Shown here: positions 18,512 through 33,061 of the stretch, piece by piece
Numbering within the stretch: the stretch's first letter is position 1
How the letters are laid out: every line of letters starts with the position of its first letter
DNA from: Minisyncoccota bacterium
Lineage (GTDB): Bacteria; Patescibacteriota; Minisyncoccia; Phycocordibacterales; UBA9973
DNA length: 64,000 bases
Assembly (NCBI GenBank): GCA_041665925.1
Contig: JBAYHW010000005.1
Location: 13,819 to 77,818 of the forward strand
Reading direction: 5' to 3'
Program-made: the position numbers and the translations under genes
The notes under the pieces: generated by a model
The model's input: the letters and a program-made list of their open reading frames with translations, nothing else
What the model was told of the DNA's origin: nothing
Database searches by the model: none

Positions 18512-19216
18512 ATGTCCGACAACAAAACAGGAACAATTCATCCACTGACACTTCTAGCTGATGAGGCATATCAGACTTTTTCGGAGCTGGGTTTTGAAAT
18601 TGTTACTGGACCAGAGCTAGAAAGTGAGTGGTATAACTTTGACGTGTTGAATGTTCCGAAAGACCACCCCGCTAGAGATATGCAAGATACATTTGTAATA
18701 AAGAATGAAAAGGAAAAAGTTTTACGTACTCACACTACGGCGGTCATTGCTAGAGCAATGGAACAAGCTGGCAAAGACGGCAGGATGCCTGCTGCATTTA
18801 TTTCCGTGGGGAAAGTTTTTCGTAACGAAGCTACCGACTTTTCTCACGAGATGCAATTTTATCAGATTGACGGCGGCATGATTGGAGAAAACATATCCTT
18901 GGCGAATTTAAAAGGCGTGCTCACGCATTTCTATAAAAAAATGTTAGGGGATGAGGTAGAGGTAGAATTTCGACCGAGCTTCTTCCCATTTACCGAGCCG
19001 TCAATAGAAGTCTTTGCTAAATTTAACGGTAAATGGCTTGAAATGATGGGCGCTGGTATGGCGCATCCAAATGTATTAAAAAACATCGGCTTGGATCCTA
19101 AGAAATATCAATGCCTGCTCTTCGGTGGGGGGCTCGACCGCATAGCGATGATAAAGTGGGGGGTGCCAGATGTCCGGCTTTTTTATCAAGGAGATTTACG
19201 CTTGAACCAAATTTAA
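18512..19216 (+). CDS. pheS: Phenylalanyl-tRNA synthetase alpha subunit (minimal catalytic core, 234 aa)
   Basis: Class II motifs FRPSFFPFTEPSIEV and GAGMAHPNVL. Confidence 0.85.
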   Translation: MSDNKTGTIHPLTLLADEAYQTFSELGFEIVTGPELESEWYNFDVLNVPKDHPARDMQDTFVIKNEKEKVLRTHTTAVIARAMEQAGKDGRMPAAFISVGKVFRNEATDFSHEMQFYQIDGGMIGENISLANLKGVLTHFYKKMLGDEVEVEFRPSFFPFTEPSIEVFAKFNGKWLEMMGAGMAHPNVLKNIGLDPKKYQCLLFGGGLDRIAMIKWGVPDVRLFYQGDLRLNQI

Positions 19217-25344: not shown

Positions 25345-25488
25345 ATGACTCAGACGTACGGTGTCTTCAATCCGCCTCCGGAGTCCAAAAAAGCTCCGCG
25401 GTGGAAGATCATCGTCCTCATTCTGTCTGGGCTCGTTCTCGGTGGCGTTGGTTGGTACCAATTTGTCCACCTTGCGGCACAGCAGTAA
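25345..25488 (+). CDS. Small GC-rich single-TM peptide (47 aa), MTQTYGVFNPPPESKKAPRWKIIVLILSGLVLGGVGWYQFVHLAAQQ
   Basis: Strong SD GAAAGGAG 8 nt upstream of the ATG. A clean hydrophobic helix. A canonical terminator follows immediately. Not in the ORF track because it is under 60 aa. About 58% GC. Confidence 0.55.
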   Translation: MTQTYGVFNPPPESKKAPRWKIIVLILSGLVLGGVGWYQFVHLAAQQ

Positions 25489-25500
25489 AACGGACCAAGC

Positions 25501-25540
25501 GGGGTTGTCGCAGAACATCGCGACAACCCCACTTCTTTTC
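25501..25540 (+). terminator. Intrinsic terminator GGGGTTGTCGC-loop-GCGACAACCCC followed by CTTCTTTTC
   Basis: Perfect 11-bp stem plus a T-run, directly after the 47-aa ORF. Confidence 0.8.
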
Positions 25541-25618
25541 ACGTGACCCCCATTTTAAATGAAATACGATATATTTAGGATTTGCAATTCACCCATAATA
25601 TGCTAGTATAAAAACACT

Positions 25619-25846
25619 ATGGTAGTACGAATGAGACATACAAAATCGCATACGAAAAACAGGCGCTCGCATCATGCACTAAAGAGCACTAGTTTTACGA
25701 AGTGCGAAAACTGCAAAGCTTTAAAGCGACGACACACCGTCTGCTCTGCTTGTGGCTTTTATCGAGGGAAAAAGGTTTTAGATTTGATTAAGAAGACAGA
25801 AAAGAAGCAAAAGAAAGCCAAAGCCAAGAAAGCTGAATCCAAATAA
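25619..25846 (+). CDS. rpmF: 50S ribosomal protein L32 (bL32)
   Basis: N-terminus MVVRMRHTKSHTKNRRSHHAL and the zinc ribbon CENC...CSAC. Confidence 0.85.
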   Translation: MVVRMRHTKSHTKNRRSHHALKSTSFTKCENCKALKRRHTVCSACGFYRGKKVLDLIKKTEKKQKKAKAKKAESK

Positions 25847-25868: not shown

Positions 25869-26801
25869 ATGGCAAATAGGCACCTTTCCAGATCAATAGT
25901 GCTCCAGACGCTTTTTGAGTGGGACTTCTCATCTCAAGATAAGAAAACTAAAAACCTAAATAGCGAAGAAGTACAAGAAACTTTAAAAAGAAATTTAAAA
26001 GAATTCGCTCCTGGTTTTGAGGATGATGTTTTCGTATTTTCTCTCATAGATAAGGTGTTAAAAAAACAAACAGTCATAGATGAGATTATTGGAAAAGCAG
26101 CCCCGGACTGGCCAATAGATAAAATTTCTGTCATTGATAGAAATATTTTAAGAATTGGGCTTACCGAGCTTCTTTTTGGTGATAGAAAAGAAGTGCCTCC
26201 GAAAGTGGCTATAAATGAAGCGATAGAGTTGGCGAAAACTTTTGGCGGAGAGAACTCTGGCAAATTTGTAAACGGCGTCCTCGGTGCTGTGTATAAAGAG
26301 ATAGGGGAGCCGGGTAAAGAGCAAATCAGTAAAAAGAAAAAAACAGACGAACCTGTCGATATAACAAAGTTGCCTATAGATAAAAAGGGAGGGGCTCTGG
26401 TATACGCTGACCATGATGGGAAAATAATGTTTGCCCTAGTGCACGACGTGTTTGGATACTGGACAATTTCCAAAGGAACAATTGAAGACGGAGAAAACGA
26501 AAAAGAGGCTACTATTAGGGAAATAAAAGAAGAGATAGGGCTTGATATTGAGATACAAGAAAAGTTGGGAGAGAATGAGTACGTTGCTTCTCACCCCGAA
26601 AAAGGAAAAAGTTTAAAAAAGGTGGTATATTTTTTAGCTAAAAGTGAATGTAAGGAATTAGAATTAGAAAAGTCTGGAGGCCTAGACGGAGCTCGTTGGT
26701 TTGAGCTTTCAGCTATACCCGAACTTCGAATTTATAATGATATTATCCCATTGATTAGTAAAGCAATTGAAATATTAACCACCGCCAAAGCGGGACAATA
26801 A
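25869..26801 (+). CDS. nusB: NusB antitermination factor fused to a C-terminal Nudix hydrolase domain (about 310 aa)
   Basis: The NusB fold (RHLSRSIVLQTLFEWDF ... ILRIGLTELLF) is followed by the Nudix box GTIEDGENEKEATIREIKEEIGL (Gx5Ex7REUxEExGU). Confidence 0.8.
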   Translation: MANRHLSRSIVLQTLFEWDFSSQDKKTKNLNSEEVQETLKRNLKEFAPGFEDDVFVFSLIDKVLKKQTVIDEIIGKAAPDWPIDKISVIDRNILRIGLTELLFGDRKEVPPKVAINEAIELAKTFGGENSGKFVNGVLGAVYKEIGEPGKEQISKKKKTDEPVDITKLPIDKKGGALVYADHDGKIMFALVHDVFGYWTISKGTIEDGENEKEATIREIKEEIGLDIEIQEKLGENEYVASHPEKGKSLKKVVYFLAKSECKELELEKSGGLDGARWFELSAIPELRIYNDIIPLISKAIEILTTAKAGQ

Positions 26802-27496
26802 TGATAAAATTTTCAGATTTTGAGAAAAAAATAAAAGTGGTTTTTAAAGATAAAGCATTGCTTCAGCAGTCTTTTACCCATCGTTCATATATAAATGAAA
26901 ATCCAGGAGTGTCTCTGTCTCACAATGAACGCTTAGAATTTCTGGGGGACGCTGTGCTTGAGCTTATCGTTACAGATTTTCTATATAAAAAATATCCACA
27001 ATACACCGAAGGGGAATTGACGGCAGTGCGTTCCGCGCTGGTGAATGCAATTATTATTTCTGAAATTGCTAGCGACATTGGTATGAATGACTACCTGCTT
27101 TTATCTAAAGGTGAAGCTAAAGACAATGGTAAAGCAAGACAATATATCCTAGCCAATACTTATGAAGCTGTTGTTGGTGCCATGTATTTAGACCAAGGGT
27201 ATGATGTCGTGGATAAATTTGTGACACAGACTTTACTCCCAAAGACTTCGGACATAGTCAGTAAAAAACTCTGGCGTGATGCGAAGTCCTTAGTGCAAGA
27301 GAAAGCGCAAGAATTCGTATCTATGACGCCTGCTTATAAAGTTCTCACGCAGTCTGGCCCAGACCACGACAAACATTTTACTGTTGGTATTTATTTCGGT
27401 ACAGATTTAATCGCCGAAGGTAAAGGTAAAAGTAAGCAAGAAGCCGAACAGAAAGCAGCCGAAGCCGCTTTAAAAGTAAAAAATTGGCAAGATTAA
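26801..27496 (+). CDS. rnc: Ribonuclease III
   Basis: RNase III signature ERLEFLGDAVL and a C-terminal dsRBD. Confidence 0.92.
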   Translation: MIKFSDFEKKIKVVFKDKALLQQSFTHRSYINENPGVSLSHNERLEFLGDAVLELIVTDFLYKKYPQYTEGELTAVRSALVNAIIISEIASDIGMNDYLLLSKGEAKDNGKARQYILANTYEAVVGAMYLDQGYDVVDKFVTQTLLPKTSDIVSKKLWRDAKSLVQEKAQEFVSMTPAYKVLTQSGPDHDKHFTVGIYFGTDLIAEGKGKSKQEAEQKAAEAALKVKNWQD

Positions 27497-27514: not shown

Positions 27515-29671
27515 ATGCGCTTAAAAACACTTCAACTAAATGGTTTTAAATCTTTTGCACAAAAAACTGTTTTAGAGTTTGAGAGTCCTATCGTGTCTAT
27601 CGTGGGGCCGAATGGCTCCGGGAAGTCCAACGTTGTAGAAGCTATCCGTTTCGTCTTGGGGGAGCAATCAATGAAGTCTATGCGCGGTAAGGGGGGCTCT
27701 GACCTTGTTTTTAAGGGTTCGAAGAATCTATCTAGAGGTTCTAAGGCAGCTGTGACTATTTATTTTAATAATACTGATAAAATTTTTAAATTATCAAACG
27801 ATAACGGAGATGATATAAATTTAAATTATGATGTAATTTCGATTTCTCGTGAAGTTTATTCCGATGGGGTCAATAAATATATTTTAAACGGATCCGAAGT
27901 CAGGCTGAAAGACATACACAACTTACTCGCTTCAGTAAACATCGGCTCTTCGGGGCACCACATCATATCTCAAGGAGAAGCAGACAGAATTTTAAACGCT
28001 TCGGCTCGCGATAAAAAAGAAATGGTAGAAGACGCACTCGGGCTTAAGATTTATCAATACAAAATAAAAGAATCCGAAAGAAAACTAGAAAAGACCACAG
28101 AAAATATGAAAGAGGTGACTATGCTCCGAAGGGAGAATGCACCCCACTTGAAATTCCTAGAAAAACAAGTAGAGAAATTTGAAAAGGCTAAGGAAATGCA
28201 AACAAGTCTGGCTAATCTATACCGAGAATACTTAAGCAAAGAAAGCATTTATATAGAAAATGAAAAGGAAAACCTATCACGAGAGAGGAACAAATTGTCG
28301 GAAGAACTGCGAGGTATAAATATAAAAATTTCTGCCACCGAAGATACTAATAAGCAAGAAAATAAAAAGATTGAGGAATTGCGAATAGTGGAGCAGAGGG
28401 TCAACGGAATCCGTGGAGCGAAGGGAGAGCTCGAGCGCAAGCTAGGGAGAATTGAAGGAATATTAGAATCAAGAGAGAATAAAGTAAAAGTCGCCGGAAA
28501 ATGCCCACTCTGTGGTAGTGAGATAAAAGAAGGAGCAGAACAAATAGAGAAAAAGCATAACGAAGAGAAAGAGCTGGAAGAATTGAAAATTTCACAGGCT
28601 AATACTGTGGCCGAGATTAGAAAAATTGAAGGAGAAGAAAAAGAGGGGATTCAAATTATTGAAAATCTCAAACAAGCAATAAATACAGAGATGGAAGCCT
28701 TGCGTGACTTAGAGCGTGAGAAATTCGCCTTTAAAGTAAGACACCAAGAGCTTTCTTCGGCGCTTGAGCTCGTAGTTATCAAAGAGGCGAACCTAAAGAA
28801 CAGAAAAGAAGCCTTCGAAAACGAGATAAAAGAGGGTGGGGCATTAATTGGCTCGGACATTTTTTCATATAAGAATTATACAGTTGAAGAAAAAGTAGAA
28901 CACGAGACTCAAGAAGAATTAAAAAAGAAAATAGAACGTATAAAGATAAAGCTTGAAGATGCAGGCATGGGCAATGGGGCGGAATTGATGAAAGAATTTG
29001 AACAAGTTTCTGAGCGAGATCAATTCTTAGCCAAGGAGCTTGAAGACTTAGAGAAGAGCATAGAATCTTTAGAAAAACTTATTGTAGATCTGAAAGAAAA
29101 GATAGATTTAGAATTTAAAGAAGGGGTCAAGAAAATAAATGTGGAATTTCAAGAATTTTTCTCACTGATGTTCGGCGGGGGGCACGGAGCGCTTTCAATT
29201 GTCGTAGAAAATAAAAAGTCCCGACGCCCTGCGGGGTCGGGATCCCGACCTGATGCGTCGGGAAAATTTGAAGACGAGGAGTTTGAATTTGAAGACGACG
29301 AAGAAATAGTTTTCGAACAGGGGATAGAGATAAATGTGTCCTTGCCTCACAAAAAAGTCAAAGATTTACATGCGTTTTCGGGAGGAGAAAGATCCCTTAC
29401 ATCCATCGCGCTTCTCTTCGCTATGTCTCAAGTCAATCCGCCGCCATTTCTAGTTCTTGATGAGACAGATGCCGCACTCGATGAAGCCAATTCTCGAAAA
29501 TATGGAGATATGCTAGAAAAACTCTCTAAGCAATCTCAACTCATCGTGGTTACTCACAACAGAGAGACGATGTCTCGAGCTGGAGTGCTCTACGGCGTCA
29601 CCATAGGTGGCGACGGTGCTTCCAAACTTCTCTCTGTGAAGTTCGAAGAAGCCACCCAGATTGCTAAATAG
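27515..29671 (+). CDS. smc: Miniaturised SMC-family ATPase (718 aa) with a CxxC zinc-hook-like apex instead of a hinge
   Basis: N-terminal Walker A MRLKTLQLNGFKSFAQKTVLEFESPIVSIVGPNGSGKSNVVEAIRFVLGEQS. C-terminal signature and D-loop FSGGERSLTSIALLFA...FLVLDETDAALDE. Mid-coiled-coil AGKCPLCGSEI. It sits in the conserved rnc-smc position. Confidence 0.8.
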   Translation: MRLKTLQLNGFKSFAQKTVLEFESPIVSIVGPNGSGKSNVVEAIRFVLGEQSMKSMRGKGGSDLVFKGSKNLSRGSKAAVTIYFNNTDKIFKLSNDNGDDINLNYDVISISREVYSDGVNKYILNGSEVRLKDIHNLLASVNIGSSGHHIISQGEADRILNASARDKKEMVEDALGLKIYQYKIKESERKLEKTTENMKEVTMLRRENAPHLKFLEKQVEKFEKAKEMQTSLANLYREYLSKESIYIENEKENLSRERNKLSEELRGINIKISATEDTNKQENKKIEELRIVEQRVNGIRGAKGELERKLGRIEGILESRENKVKVAGKCPLCGSEIKEGAEQIEKKHNEEKELEELKISQANTVAEIRKIEGEEKEGIQIIENLKQAINTEMEALRDLEREKFAFKVRHQELSSALELVVIKEANLKNRKEAFENEIKEGGALIGSDIFSYKNYTVEEKVEHETQEELKKKIERIKIKLEDAGMGNGAELMKEFEQVSERDQFLAKELEDLEKSIESLEKLIVDLKEKIDLEFKEGVKKINVEFQEFFSLMFGGGHGALSIVVENKKSRRPAGSGSRPDASGKFEDEEFEFEDDEEIVFEQGIEINVSLPHKKVKDLHAFSGGERSLTSIALLFAMSQVNPPPFLVLDETDAALDEANSRKYGDMLEKLSKQSQLIVVTHNRETMSRAGVLYGVTIGGDGASKLLSVKFEEATQIAK

Positions 29672-31141: not shown

Positions 31142-33061
31142 TTAAGGAAGTTTTAATTTTTCCTCTTTGGCAGGGATTATTTTATTTAGTTGGAAAACAG
31201 AGTTAAGTTGGGTTTGATTTTTCTTTACTGATATAGAGCCGTCGCGGTTTAACTTTATTTCTAGAAGCATACCTTGCATCGTAGCTTTACTCCATGATTG
31301 GTCAAACACAAAGTTCCCGAGAGAGTAGGCAATGAAACTCGCGCACGAACTTTGAGTGCAATCTTTCCTGCTGTATACTTCTGTATCTTCAACTACGTGC
31401 GGATGATGTCCGATAACTATTTTTGCCCCCGCATCCACGGCTTTATGGGCGAGATATTCCTGACGAGCATTGTGCCTTGGTTTATATTCATCGCCGAAAT
31501 GGAAAGAAACGACGAGATAATCTACTTGCTTTGCAGCATTTTGAACTATCTCATTAAAACGAGGGTTGCTAGCGAGGAGTACACCTGCTTTTTCTTCTCC
31601 GGCTTCCATCCACGAAGGGCCGACGTCAGAAAACCCAAGGTAACCTATTTTCATCCCATATTTTTCTATGATGACTGGAGTCTCAGCCTCAGCGCGGTTA
31701 TAGCCTCCGCCAGTATAATGTATTTCATTTTCTTTCAAGCGCCCTAGAGTGTCAACGTATGCAGTGCGCCCCCAGTCTCCCACGTGATTATTCGCAAGAG
31801 ATAAAACACCCACTCCGGCCCCTTTGAGCGCGGGGATTACGCCGGGGTCCATTCTAAATGAATATAAATTTTTCTGGTCAACTCCTTGATCTGACGCGGT
31901 GCCCTCTAAATTGGCGAAAGCGATGTCTGACTTTTTAAATATATCTACTTTTTCAAAGATAGCTGAGTAATCATTGTTGAAATTTTTTACCACCGAAGAC
32001 CTCACGCCACGGTCGAGCATTATGTCTCCACCGAAAGCTAGCATTACGAAAGATGGATCTTTTATTTCTGGTAGACCAACTTTTTCTTTAACCCAGTCGG
32101 TGTTAGCGTCAGCTTTCCCTCCATAATAAATATATTTTTTTAAATATTTTACAATTGATTCCACATCTTTCTTCCTATCAGTACTCTGAAGTAGGGTGAT
32201 GGCTATAGGGCGAGTGCCAGTTTCACTAAGAGGAAGATTGAAAAGAGATACTACTGTTTGCTTGGCAGGGTCGGTGTAGCCACTTTTACCTCCTGTGTAT
32301 CCGTCTTGGCCTAAAAATTGGCTGATGTTGGACCAGCTGTGCTTTTTGTTTGTGTAGCTTCTTTTTGTGGTAATGCCCACTAGGTCTGGTTTTTCTTTCG
32401 TTAAGTATCCGGTTAATTTAAAAATATCAGAGACAGTAGATTTATTGTTTATAGAAAGTCCGCTCGGATCGGCAAATGAAGTGTTTGGCATTTTTAGAAT
32501 CTCTGCCACCTCATTCATTTTTGAAATAAAGGAATCTCTACCGAAATGTTCGGCGATGGCTTCAGCCGCGTCGTTGCTAGATTCTAAAAGGAGCGGGTAG
32601 AGCAGGTCGGTAGTTTTTATTTTTTCCCCAAGTTTTAATTCTCCATTGGAGCCAGAGGTAGCTAGAGCTTTTTTGCTGACTTGTACTGTGTCATCTGCGT
32701 TGGTTATTTCTGTGGCTACTAGAGCTGTCATCAGCTTGGAGACCGAAGCGATAGGGAAGGCCACTTCTTGATTTTTTGAGAGAATGACTTCACCAGTATT
32801 CAAATCTCCGACAAGATATGCTTTCGCGGAGACCTTCGGTCCGCCGTTCGTGTCTTTATTGACATAAAAATATTGAGATTTTATCTCTTCGCGGTCTTTA
32901 GGAATAAGCTGAACTACTGAAGCGAGATTGTTTGATGATTGCCGGAAGTCGTTAATATTAAGGGCAGAAAATACTGACGATGTAAAAAATACTCCAATTA
33001 ATATTGAAAATGTGGTCCACAGTATTACATTTATTTTTTTTCTTTTTTGAATAGGACTCAT
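31142..33061 (-). CDS. Fusion protein: N-terminal D-alanyl-D-alanine carboxypeptidase (S11/PBP5-like) plus C-terminal CapA/PGA-type metallophosphoesterase (639 aa)
   Basis: Signal-anchor. The SxxK motif ASVSKLMTALV, the SxN motif ESSNDAAEA and the KTG motif GGKSGYT. Then the CapA motifs FANLEG, GYNRAE, VSFHFGDEY, GHHPHV and GNFVFDQ. Confidence 0.8.
   Translation of the reverse strand: MSPIQKRKKINVILWTTFSILIGVFFTSSVFSALNINDFRQSSNNLASVVQLIPKDREEIKSQYFYVNKDTNGGPKVSAKAYLVGDLNTGEVILSKNQEVAFPIASVSKLMTALVATEITNADDTVQVSKKALATSGSNGELKLGEKIKTTDLLYPLLLESSNDAAEAIAEHFGRDSFISKMNEVAEILKMPNTSFADPSGLSINNKSTVSDIFKLTGYLTKEKPDLVGITTKRSYTNKKHSWSNISQFLGQDGYTGGKSGYTDPAKQTVVSLFNLPLSETGTRPIAITLLQSTDRKKDVESIVKYLKKYIYYGGKADANTDWVKEKVGLPEIKDPSFVMLAFGGDIMLDRGVRSSVVKNFNNDYSAIFEKVDIFKKSDIAFANLEGTASDQGVDQKNLYSFRMDPGVIPALKGAGVGVLSLANNHVGDWGRTAYVDTLGRLKENEIHYTGGGYNRAEAETPVIIEKYGMKIGYLGFSDVGPSWMEAGEEKAGVLLASNPRFNEIVQNAAKQVDYLVVSFHFGDEYKPRHNARQEYLAHKAVDAGAKIVIGHHPHVVEDTEVYSRKDCTQSSCASFIAYSLGNFVFDQSWSKATMQGMLLEIKLNRDGSISVKKNQTQLNSVFQLNKIIPAKEEKLKLP

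What the first reader, a model, noticed from the sequence alone, without database searches (positions are those of the whole stretch)
25869..26801. NusB fused to a Nudix hydrolase domain
The canonical NusB fold is followed in the same polypeptide by a complete Nudix box (GTIEDGENEKEATIREIKEEIGL). It links the antitermination and ribosome-biogenesis factor to a nucleotide-pyrophosphatase. Possible roles are RNA 5'-end decapping (RppH-like) or alarmone hydrolysis at the transcription complex. The fusion is unusual relative to model bacteria.
Basis: partly seen in the sequence, partly recalled or inferred. Interest (0 to 1): 0.55.

Follow-up and report, generated by a model that had tools for sequence, protein, structure and literature searches.

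The report
NusB fused to a nucleotide-binding Nudix domain
In a large group of tiny-genome (Paceibacteria/CPR) bacteria, the rRNA transcription factor NusB always carries an extra domain derived from an Ap4A-cleaving enzyme, and evolution has preserved that domain's nucleotide-binding pocket but not its catalytic residues, so it probably binds a ligand rather than mainly cutting one.

Summary
Window 25869-26801 (+) is one 310-aa ORF: a canonical NusB (PF01029 1.3e-34; TIGR01951 above cutoff), a disordered linker of about 25 aa, and a complete Nudix fold with a perfect Nudix box. It is not an assembly artefact. All 80 species-representative loci examined have the single fused ORF, within a conserved thrS(-)|rpmF-nusB::nudix-rnc-smc arrangement, and at least 581 species representatives encode a relative. 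Source labels are almost all Paceibacterota/Parcubacteria.

The Nudix domain is of the Ap4A/Ap6A-hydrolase type, not RppH. Across 346 fusion proteins the catalytic residues are not conserved: E218 changed 59 times and E221 58 times, and only 49% keep the full set. The residues equivalent to the Ap4A-hydrolase ligand pocket are nearly invariant (K202, Y238, K250, Y289, D291). Stand-alone relatives keep the catalytic set in 21 of 22 cases. Lineages that lost it show no faster decay of the domain.

Best reading: a housekeeping NusB with a tethered adenine-nucleotide/polyphosphate-binding module whose hydrolase activity is dispensable. The query copy may still be active. I found no description in the searchable literature. 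I class it as a new variant of known kinds, of moderate-to-good interest.

The parts
25869..26801 (+). nusB::nudix fusion gene (310 aa plus stop)
   Evidence: Single ORF; both Pfam domains above gathering score; identical to public protein P0001, which NCBI annotates only as 'NusB'.
25878..26306 (+). NusB domain (aa 4-146), all-helical
   Evidence: TIGR01951 at 123 bits (cutoff 88); T. maritima NusB 1tzt E=2.7e-20; Foldseek 1tzv TM 0.83. The BoxA-U8 stacking residue F133 (= Aa/Ec F122) is invariant in 346 sequences, and D90 (= AaE81) changed 3 times.
26307..26378 (+). Flexible linker (aa 147-170), rich in Lys and Glu
   Evidence: pLDDT <50 for aa 148-161 and pTM 0.50. Length is 10-43 aa (median 26) across 346 homologues, and this is the fastest-evolving segment.
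26379..26783 (+). Nudix-fold domain (aa 171-305) of the Ap4A/Ap6A-hydrolase type
   Evidence: PF00293; PDB phmmer best hits are Ndx1, Aquifex Ap4A hydrolase and C. elegans Ap4A hydrolase; Foldseek 3i7u TM 0.89 and 1vc8 0.85.
26475..26543 (+). Nudix box GTIEDGENEKEATIREIKEEIGL (aa 203-225); complete in the query, not conserved in the family
   Evidence: Read directly from the sequence. Family census of E209/R217/E218/E221/E222: 169 of 346 intact. Changes on the tree: E218 59, E221 58, R217 37, E209 32, E222 5.
26460..26741 (+). Span holding the conserved putative ligand-pocket residues W198, T199, K202, Y238, K250, Y254, W277, Y289, D291
   Evidence: BLASTP to human NUDT2 maps K202=Lys42, Y238=Tyr82, K250=Lys89, Y289=Phe128, D291=Glu130. 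Roles of these residues come from PMC4734340. They changed 0-11 times on the 346-sequence tree.
25619..25846 (+). rpmF (ribosomal protein L32), immediately upstream in the same orientation
   Evidence: PF01783 3.2e-16; present upstream in 76 of the 80 related loci.
26801..27496 (+). rnc (RNase III); its ATG overlaps the fusion's stop codon (TAATG)
   Evidence: PF14622, PF00636 and dsrm; directly downstream in 79 of 80 loci with very short gaps.
27515..29671 (+). Short SMC-like ATPase (718 aa), last conserved member of the gene string
   Evidence: PF02463 1e-56; conserved downstream of rnc.
25582..25610 (+). Promoter-like motif TTGCAA-N17-TAGTAT upstream of rpmF; probable operon promoter
   Evidence: Sequence; the same 'TTGC...TAATATGCTAGTAT' motif recurs in the short thrS-rpmF spacers of related loci. 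Inferred, not tested.

Best explanation
The gene encodes the cell's housekeeping NusB, the BoxA-RNA/S10-binding subunit of the rRNA antitermination complex. A flexible linker of about 25 residues joins it to a Nudix domain that descends from an Ap4A/ApnA hydrolase. It is transcribed with rpmF, rnc (RNase III) and smc. What selection preserves in the Nudix domain is its adenine-nucleotide/polyphosphate-binding pocket, not the catalytic glutamates. So the conserved job of the domain is to bind a ligand at the rRNA transcription and processing complex, not to hydrolyse it. The ligand is most likely an ApnA/ATP-type nucleotide. Less likely, it is the adenylated, polyphosphorylated 5' end of a nascent transcript. 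I propose that ligand occupancy tunes or tethers NusB function, as in ligand-sensing or non-catalytic Nudix domains such as NrtR and CFIm25. In copies that keep a full Nudix box, including this window's protein, the domain probably still hydrolyses its ligand slowly, acting as a self-resetting sensor or local sink. Shown here: the architecture, its conservation and synteny, the Ap4A-hydrolase affinity, the relaxed catalytic residues, the conserved pocket residues, and the absence of decay after catalytic loss. Inferred: the identity of the ligand and any effect on antitermination.
For: - Fusion and synteny: all 80 species-representative loci have one fused ORF, and 67 show the full thrS(-)|rpmF-fusion-rnc-smc arrangement. 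At least 581 species representatives encode a relative.
- NusB is canonical: TIGR01951 above cutoff; F133 (the BoxA-U8 stacking residue, = F122) is invariant and D90 (= E81) nearly so. No second NusB or Nudix in the 64-kb window.
- Nudix subtype: best sequence and fold matches are Ap4A/Ap6A hydrolases.
- Catalytic residues are unconstrained: E218 changed 59 times, E221 58, R217 37, against a domain median of 37. 169 of 346 are intact overall, 57 of 120 at about 80% identity and 8 of 41 among diverse representatives.
- Control: stand-alone relatives keep the set in 21 of 22 cases (Fisher p = 2.8e-9).
- Pocket residues are conserved: K202 1 change, Y289 1, Y238 6, D291 9, K250 11. They map to NUDT2 Lys42, Phe128, Tyr82, Glu130 and Lys89, whose phosphate-binding and adenine-stacking roles are given in PMC4734340.
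- No decay after catalytic loss: the Nudix/NusB divergence ratio is 1.43 (intact), 1.48 (E218 lost) and 1.15 (E218 and E221 lost), and pocket residues stay 93-100% conserved in the degenerate classes.
- Precedents: CFIm25 lacks two box glutamates and binds but does not hydrolyse Ap4A within an RNA-processing complex (PMC2425470). SuhB is an enzyme-fold subunit of the rRNA antitermination complex whose activity is not required (PMC6614801). The NrtR Nudix domain ranks 6th in the fold search.
Against: - No experiment exists; the ligand and any effect on NusB are inferred.
- About half of family members, including the query, keep a perfect Nudix box. E222, G203 and mostly E209 are conserved, so real hydrolase activity in many members is quite possible and could matter.
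- Some conserved 'pocket' residues (W198, Y254, W277) are also fold-core residues, so their conservation may be structural.
- The pocket mapping rests on pairwise alignments at about 27% identity. The loop-5 Tyr lies 13 residues after the box here, against the usual 17 (PMC2425470).
- The linker is disordered and pTM is 0.50, so no allosteric route from the Nudix domain to NusB is evident.
- Substitution counts come from a UPGMA tree with Fitch parsimony on protein sequences, not a codon model. The sequence pairs are not independent.
Confidence: 0.5

Rival explanations
1. The Nudix domain is primarily an active enzyme, an ApnA/Np4A hydrolase or an RNA 5'-end pyrophosphohydrolase/decapping enzyme. 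NusB delivers it to the 5' leader of nascent rRNA to convert or uncap the 5' end and so license processing. This is essentially the first reader's idea, with Ap4A-type chemistry.
For: The query has a perfect Nudix box plus Ap4A-hydrolase pocket residues. 169 of 346 members are intact. NusB binds BoxA near the 5' end of rRNA leaders, and the downstream gene is RNase III, which processes that leader (PMC6614801). Ap4A-type hydrolases are linked to Np4 caps on RNA (title and abstract of PMC13010140). Dcp2 Nudix domains are among the sequence and fold hits.
Against: Catalytic E218 and E221 are among the more variable positions even at about 80% identity, whereas stand-alone relatives keep them in 21 of 22 cases. 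The domain does not decay after losing them. RppH models score far below their cutoffs. The domain is acidic (median net charge -6), unlike typical RNA-body-binding Nudix enzymes.
Confidence: 0.25
2. The Nudix domain is a protein-protein or protein-RNA scaffold inside the antitermination complex, an enzyme fold recruited for structure like SuhB. Ligand binding would be irrelevant.
For: Catalysis is dispensable while the fold is conserved. In SuhB, enzymatic activity is not required while transcription-related roles appear to be its main function (PMC6614801). PMC2425470 says the CFIm25 Nudix domain is thought to facilitate protein-protein interactions, and that its residues 81-160 bind RNA and stabilise such interactions.
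Against: The best-conserved surface-type residues are exactly those that bind phosphate and stack adenine in Ap4A hydrolases (K202, Y238, K250, Y289, D291), which points to a small-ligand pocket. The model predicts no fixed contact with NusB. No partner has been identified.
Confidence: 0.15
3. This is a fusion of convenience. A housekeeping Ap4A hydrolase gene next to nusB became fused in a streamlined genome with no functional coupling, and its activity is being lost where other enzymes make it redundant.
For: CPR genomes are compact and genes here are tightly packed or overlapping. Catalytic residues are lost repeatedly. The linker is flexible and variable.
Against: A redundant domain should be deleted or decay in reduced genomes. 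Instead it is retained in every one of 80 species loci and in fusions down to about 30% identity. Its evolutionary rate is unchanged after catalytic loss and its pocket residues are near-invariant.
Confidence: 0.1

Closest known systems
NusB (N-utilisation substance B; TIGR01951/PF01029), the BoxA-binding partner of S10/NusE in rRNA antitermination
   Same: The N-terminal 146 aa score as the NusB equivalog. They have the NusB fold, the KVAINEAIELAK and KFVNGVL motifs, the invariant BoxA-U8 stacking Phe (F133 = F122) and an acidic residue at the E81 position.
   Different: Model-organism NusB is a stand-alone protein of about 140 aa. Here it always carries a C-terminal Nudix domain and sits between rpmF and rnc.
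Nudix Ap4A/Ap6A hydrolases (Aquifex aq_158 3i7u, T. thermophilus Ndx1 1vc8, C. elegans 1ktg, human NUDT2 3u53)
   Same: These are the best sequence and fold matches. They share the W-T-x-x-K-G motif, a Tyr in the X-loop, the K-x-V-x-Y-[FW]-L strand and a C-terminal aromatic that stacks adenine.
   Different: Those enzymes, and this domain's own stand-alone relatives (21 of 22), keep RE..EE. The fused family does not (49% intact). The His of 'PKGH' is replaced (T204 in the query and highly variable), and the X-loop Tyr lies 13 rather than 17 residues after the box.
CFIm25 / NUDT21, the non-catalytic Nudix subunit of the pre-mRNA 3'-processing factor
   Same: A Nudix fold lacking catalytic glutamates that binds but does not hydrolyse Ap4A/ATP and works inside an RNA-processing machine (PMC2425470).
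   Different: It is eukaryotic, not fused to NusB and not a close sequence relative. Its Ap4A site is displaced from the canonical one. In the present family, catalytic loss is partial and lineage-dependent.
NrtR, Nudix-related transcriptional regulators
   Same: A Nudix-fold ligand sensor covalently joined to a nucleic-acid-binding module that controls transcription. The NrtR Nudix domain (3gz8) ranks 6th in the fold search. The role of NrtR is from my own knowledge.
   Different: The NrtR partner is a winged-helix DNA-binding domain acting as a repressor, and the ligand is ADP-ribose. Here the partner is an RNA-binding antitermination factor and the Nudix subtype is Ap4A-hydrolase-like.
SuhB in the E. 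coli rrn antitermination complex
   Same: An enzyme-fold protein that functions with NusB/BoxA in rRNA antitermination and whose enzymatic activity is not required (PMC6614801).
   Different: It has a different fold (inositol monophosphatase), is a separate polypeptide, and has no known relation to the Nudix domain. Functional equivalence is speculation.
RppH / Dcp2 RNA 5'-end Nudix hydrolases
   Same: Nudix fold. Dcp2 has the same order of a helical domain followed by a Nudix domain and appears among the hits.
   Different: RppH NCBIfam models score 16-32 bits against cutoffs of 116-259. The two-domain Dcp2 superpositions have rmsd of about 14 Å. The domain is acidic and its catalytic residues are not conserved.

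Membership tests
NusB (TIGR01951 / PF01029) | Matches the curated equivalog HMM above its trusted cutoff | tested here: met
   TIGR01951: 123.2 bits against a cutoff of 88.35. PF01029: 119.9 bits against 23.1.
NusB (TIGR01951 / PF01029) | All-alpha NusB fold | tested here: met
   The AF2 model has seven helices in aa 4-145. Foldseek to T. maritima NusB 1tzv gives TM 0.83, rmsd 2.6 Å.
NusB (TIGR01951 / PF01029) | BoxA-U8 pocket residues: aromatic F122 in helix alpha7 and an acidic residue at E81 (Aquifex numbering) | tested here: met
   F133 = F122 has 0 changes in 346 sequences. D90 = E81 has 3 changes, and Asp also occurs there in T. maritima NusB.
NusB (TIGR01951 / PF01029) | Binds S10/NusE and BoxA RNA and supports rRNA antitermination; sole NusB of the genome | not testable with these tools
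   There is no rRNA operon or S10 gene context in the window and no whole-genome access. No second NusB lies within the 64-kb window.
Nudix hydrolase superfamily (PF00293) | Nudix alpha/beta/alpha fold | tested here: met
   PF00293 at 52.1 bits against a cutoff of 21.1. Foldseek 3i7u TM 0.89, rmsd 2.2 Å.
Nudix hydrolase superfamily (PF00293) | Nudix box GX5EX7REUXEEXGU present in this protein | tested here: met
   aa 203-225, GTIEDGENEKEATIREIKEEIGL, matches every specified position.
Nudix hydrolase superfamily (PF00293) | Catalytic box residues conserved among orthologues, as expected if hydrolysis is the selected function | tested here: not met
   169 of 346 are intact. E218 changed 59 times and E221 58, against a domain median of 37. 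Stand-alone relatives keep the set in 21 of 22 cases.
Nudix hydrolase superfamily (PF00293) | Mg2+/Mn2+-dependent pyrophosphohydrolase activity | not testable with these tools
   Needs an enzyme assay.
Nudix Ap4A/ApnA hydrolase subfamily | Phosphate-binding Lys of the (P)KG motif, Tyr in the loop after the box, a second stacking aromatic, and Lys on the following strand | tested here: met
   K202=Lys42, Y238=Tyr82, Y289=Phe128, K250=Lys89 by BLASTP to NUDT2. Roles are given in PMC4734340. All are conserved, with 1-11 changes in 346 sequences.
Nudix Ap4A/ApnA hydrolase subfamily | Stacking Tyr/Phe 17 residues downstream of the box; His of PKGH | tested here: inconclusive
   The conserved Tyr lies 13 residues after the box, and position +17 is H242 (29 changes). 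Position 204 is Thr in the query and highly variable (92 changes).
RppH (RNA pyrophosphohydrolase) | Matches RppH equivalog models above cutoff | tested here: not met
   The best RppH model, NF001936, scores 32.2 bits against a cutoff of 118. The others score 16-21.5 bits against 116-259.
Non-catalytic / ligand-sensing Nudix domains (NrtR, CFIm25 type) | Nudix fold retained, catalytic glutamates dispensable, ligand pocket conserved | tested here: met
   at family level. In the query itself the glutamates are present, so its own status is undetermined.
Non-catalytic / ligand-sensing Nudix domains (NrtR, CFIm25 type) | Demonstrated ligand binding without turnover, and a regulatory output | not testable with these tools
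   Needs binding and functional assays.

The most novel reading that the evidence does not exclude
NusB::Nudix is a ligand-gated antitermination factor. In Paceibacteria, an ApnA/adenine-polyphosphate signal, for example Ap4A made by aminoacyl-tRNA synthetases under stress, is read directly at the rRNA transcription complex by a pseudo-enzyme domain built into NusB. This would couple ribosome synthesis and RNase III processing to nucleotide or stress status. Catalytically intact copies would act as self-resetting sensors. It would be a previously unknown control point for rRNA synthesis.
Probability: 0.2. Interest if true: 0.8.

Novelty: new variant of a known kind. Interest (0 to 1): 0.6.

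Why it matters
NusB is a universal core factor of rRNA transcription, and in all studied bacteria it is a small single-domain protein. Here a whole, very species-rich bacterial lineage has permanently attached a nucleotide-binding domain to it, and public annotation hides this by calling the protein simply 'NusB'. The conservation pattern is ligand pocket kept, catalytic glutamates free to vary, and no decay after their loss. That is the signature of a pseudo-enzyme or sensor, and it gives a concrete, testable hypothesis about how minimal-genome CPR bacteria might link nucleotide or alarmone status to ribosome production. It also adds a bacterial example to the short list of non-catalytic Nudix domains working in RNA machines (CFIm25), and parallels SuhB's enzyme-fold role in antitermination. 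Practically, it warns against inferring enzyme activity from one perfect motif without a family-level check.

Tried and rejected
- **Frameshift or two-gene artefact:** rejected. The fusion is present in every related locus and in hundreds of independent contigs.
- **RppH membership:** rejected on HMM scores.
- **Generic RNA-binding surface:** disfavoured, because the domain is acidic with a median net charge of -6.
- **A second NusB or Nudix nearby:** none in the window.
- **Genome scan with a diverse 23-sequence Nudix alignment:** failed because no stretch was conserved enough. A tighter 10-sequence alignment worked but returned only the nearer clade (62-84% identity).
- **Taxonomy of the distant fusions:** not resolved. 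Cluster look-up gave only 'Parcubacteria/bacterium' labels. The two profile searches drifted back to the large central clade. Genomic context of the distant fusions could not be fetched because representatives-search proteins are not accepted by the contig look-up.
- **Literature searches:** five searches for a prior description found nothing relevant. A sixth, on inactive bacterial Nudix domains in general, also turned up nothing on this fusion. A search for C. elegans Tyr76/Tyr121 found nothing usable, so the pocket mapping was re-based on human NUDT2 numbering from PMC4734340.
- **Rfam scan of the upstream intergenic hairpin:** no credible hit.
- **Model coordinates:** not available to scripts, so spatial clustering of the conserved residues could not be computed.
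Full report
**1. Observation**

Window 25869-26801 (+) is a single uninterrupted ORF of 310 aa.
- Pfam finds NusB (PF01029, aa 7-143, E=1.3e-34) and NUDIX (PF00293, aa 195-288, E=8.8e-14), both far above their gathering scores.
- NCBIfam's NusB equivalog TIGR01951 scores 123 bits against a cutoff of 88.
- PDB sequence matches cover the whole Nudix fold, aa 172-302.
- An AlphaFold2 model (mean pLDDT 79.8) shows a helical NusB domain, a disordered linker (aa 148-161, pLDDT <50) and an alpha/beta Nudix domain. The pTM of 0.50 means no fixed orientation between the domains.

**2. Not an artefact, and widespread**

- The exact protein is public (P0001, a Candidatus Paceibacterota MAG) and is annotated only as 'NusB'.
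Every listed hit carries both Pfam domains. Organism names, where a source gives one, are Paceibacterota, Nomurabacteria, Minisyncoccia, Parcubacteria or Patescibacteria, plus one Moranbacteria.
- An exhaustive search of 1.84 billion 50%-identity representatives with the Nudix domain alone found a NusB domain upstream in 58 of the best 150. About 40-45 of these are full-length fusions of 280-360 aa, whose Nudix domains have diverged to as little as about 30% identity.
- All 80 retrieved loci have NusB and Nudix in one ORF. 67 show the full arrangement thrS(-) | rpmF - nusB::nudix - rnc - smc, and the others are cut by contig ends.
- Gaps between these genes are tiny. In the window the rnc ATG overlaps the fusion's stop codon.
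- One locus titled 'Burkholderiales' has 31% GC and the same synteny, so it is a mislabelled bin.

**3. The NusB half is canonical**

It has the NusB fold (Foldseek TM 0.83 to T. maritima NusB). It shares the KVAINEAIELAK and KFVNGVL motifs with E. coli NusB, as I recall that sequence.

In the Aquifex NusB-NusE-BoxA structure, F122 stacks on BoxA-U8 and the E. coli F122D mutant is defective. E81 reads U8 and is held by NusE-H15 (PMC3177189). By the alignment these are F133 and D90 here. On a tree of 346 fusion proteins F133 never changes and D90 changes 3 times.

The NusB domain evolves more slowly than the Nudix domain, with a median of 22 against 37 changes per site. No second NusB lies in the window. 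I therefore take this to be the housekeeping NusB. That it is the only one in the genome could not be tested.

**4. The Nudix half is of the Ap4A-hydrolase type**

- Best PDB sequence hits are T. thermophilus Ndx1 (an Ap6A hydrolase), Aquifex Ap4A hydrolase, C. elegans Ap4A hydrolase, then Dcp2 and human NUDT2.
- Best fold matches are Aquifex Ap4A hydrolase (TM 0.89), Ndx1 (0.85), C. elegans Ap4A hydrolase and mycobacterial MutT1/Rv2985. The ADP-ribose-sensing Nudix domain of NrtR ranks sixth.
- RppH models score 16-32 bits against cutoffs of 116-259.

**5. The catalytic residues are not what is conserved**

| Sample | Full E209/R217/E218/E221/E222 set kept |
|---|---|
| Relatives about 80% identical to the query | 57 of 120 |
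| Relatives at 61-85% identity | 77 of 114 |
| Diverse 50%-cluster representatives | 8 of 41 |
| All unique full-length fusions | 169 of 346 |
| GTDB species representatives | 29 of 73 |

Substitution counts on a UPGMA tree with Fitch parsimony:
- Catalytic positions: E218 changed at least 59 times and E221 at least 58. E218 is equivalent to the NUDT2 Glu58 that is mutated in the E58A crystal structure 4ijx. R217 changed 37 times and E209 32. The domain median is 37, which puts E218 and E221 at about the 70th percentile of variability.
- Conserved positions: W198 0, T199 1, K202 1, Y289 1, Y254 2, W277 2, E222 5, G203 6, Y238 6, D291 9, K250 11.

A BLASTP alignment to human NUDT2 gives K202=Lys42, Y238=Tyr82, K250=Lys89, Y289=Phe128 and D291=Glu130. 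According to PMC4734340, these are the residues that bind the P1 phosphate (Lys42, Tyr82, and Lys89 by analogy with the Plasmodium enzyme), stack the adenine (the loop-5 Tyr and Phe128) and hydrogen-bond its amino group (Glu130).

**6. Two controls**

- Stand-alone relatives of the same domain at comparable divergence (30-45% identity, about 140 aa) keep the catalytic set in 21 of 22 cases, against 8 of 41 for diverse fusions (Fisher p = 2.8e-9). Relaxation is therefore specific to the fused lineage.
- If the domain were decaying after catalytic loss, it should evolve faster relative to its own NusB domain. It does not. The median Nudix/NusB divergence ratio is 1.43 for intact pairs, 1.48 for pairs lacking E218, and 1.15 for pairs lacking both E218 and E221. 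Pocket residues stay 93-100% conserved in the degenerate classes.

Caveats: these are protein-level parsimony counts on a UPGMA tree, the pairs are not independent, and the alignment to NUDT2 is at about 27% identity.

**7. Interpretation**

Shown here:
- a conserved, operon-embedded fusion of a canonical NusB with an Ap4A-hydrolase-derived Nudix domain;
- a conserved nucleotide pocket;
- dispensable catalytic glutamates.

Inferred: the domain's selected function is ligand binding at the rRNA transcription and processing complex. NusB binds BoxA in rRNA leaders, and RNase III, encoded next door, processes the duplex that includes the adjacent boxC (PMC6614801).

My preferred ligand is an ApnA/ATP-type nucleotide. 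A 5'-terminal adenylated polyphosphate RNA end is possible, but the acidic character of the domain (median net charge -6) makes it less attractive. The query, with its perfect box, may well still hydrolyse its ligand.

Precedents:
- CFIm25 lacks two box glutamates and binds but does not hydrolyse Ap4A (Kd 2.4 µM) within an RNA 3'-processing factor (PMC2425470).
- Non-enzymatic Nudix domains are a recognised class (PMC5389931).
- SuhB is an enzyme-fold subunit of the rrn antitermination complex whose activity is not required (PMC6614801).

**8. Rivals**

- **Active hydrolase or decapping enzyme delivered by NusB.** This fits the intact half of the family and the Ap4A/Np4-cap connection (PMC13010140). 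It does not explain the free variation of E218/E221 or the lack of decay.
- **Pure scaffold, like SuhB.** This fits dispensable catalysis, but not why precisely the phosphate- and adenine-binding residues are the invariant ones.
- **Fusion of convenience.** This is contradicted by universal retention and an unchanged rate after catalytic loss.

**9. Novelty**

Six full-text searches found no description of a NusB-Nudix protein. The large Nudix-clan survey does not mention NusB in its main text. The sequences have been public for years and carry both Pfam hits, so the architecture is visible in databases, but it is unannotated and undiscussed. Both domains and the idea of a non-catalytic Nudix sensor are known. 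Their combination on a core antitermination factor, with this conservation pattern, is a new variant.

**10. Verdict**

- Observation: confirmed.
- Interest: 0.6.

Noticed in passing
window 25345-25530 (+): A 47-aa ORF (MTQTYGVFNPPPESKKAPRWKIIVLILSGLVLGGVGWYQFVHLAAQQ) has an AGGAG about 8 nt upstream, one hydrophobic helix, and a strong GC-rich terminator hairpin with a T-run at 25501-25530. Its GC is 0.52 against about 0.38 in the flanks. Most related loci have only 54-100 bp between thrS and rpmF, so this looks like an inserted small membrane-peptide gene or element. It has no Rfam match.
   Followed up: partly
L006, L031, L052 (thrS-rpmF spacers): A minority of related loci carry different long GC-rich perfect hairpins (-24 to -32 kcal/mol over 50 nt) at the same intergenic position. 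This suggests a recurrent insertion site for small palindromic elements.
   Followed up: no
window 25582-25610 and most L-loci: A conserved promoter-like motif, TTGCA-N17-TAGTAT ('TAATATGCTAGTAT'), lies directly upstream of rpmF and leaves a very short leader before the L32 start codon.
   Followed up: partly
P0213 and P0190 (proteins): The same Nudix subtype occurs in other fusions. P0213 (379 aa) has a DnaA C-terminal DNA-binding domain followed by Nudix. P0190 (577 aa) has a roughly 300-aa N-terminal extension followed by NusB and Nudix.
   Followed up: partly
window 27515-29671 (+): The SMC-like gene downstream of rnc encodes only 718 aa, well short of the roughly 1,200 aa I recall as typical for bacterial SMC. 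It is conserved in this position across related loci.
   Followed up: no
window 31142-33061 (-): A 639-aa protein combines a D-Ala-D-Ala carboxypeptidase domain (Peptidase_S11) with a PGA_cap capsule-synthesis domain, which looks like an unusual fusion.
   Followed up: no
window 18512-19216 (+): PheS is only 234 aa, consisting of the catalytic core domain alone. This fits the domain trimming typical of reduced genomes.
   Followed up: no
L080, and many loci titled 'uncultured Candidatus Saccharibacteria': L080 is titled 'Burkholderiales' but has 31% GC and the Paceibacteria synteny, so it is probably a mis-binned or mislabelled contig. The many 'Saccharibacteria' titles on loci with the same synteny also look like generic labels.
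   Followed up: partly
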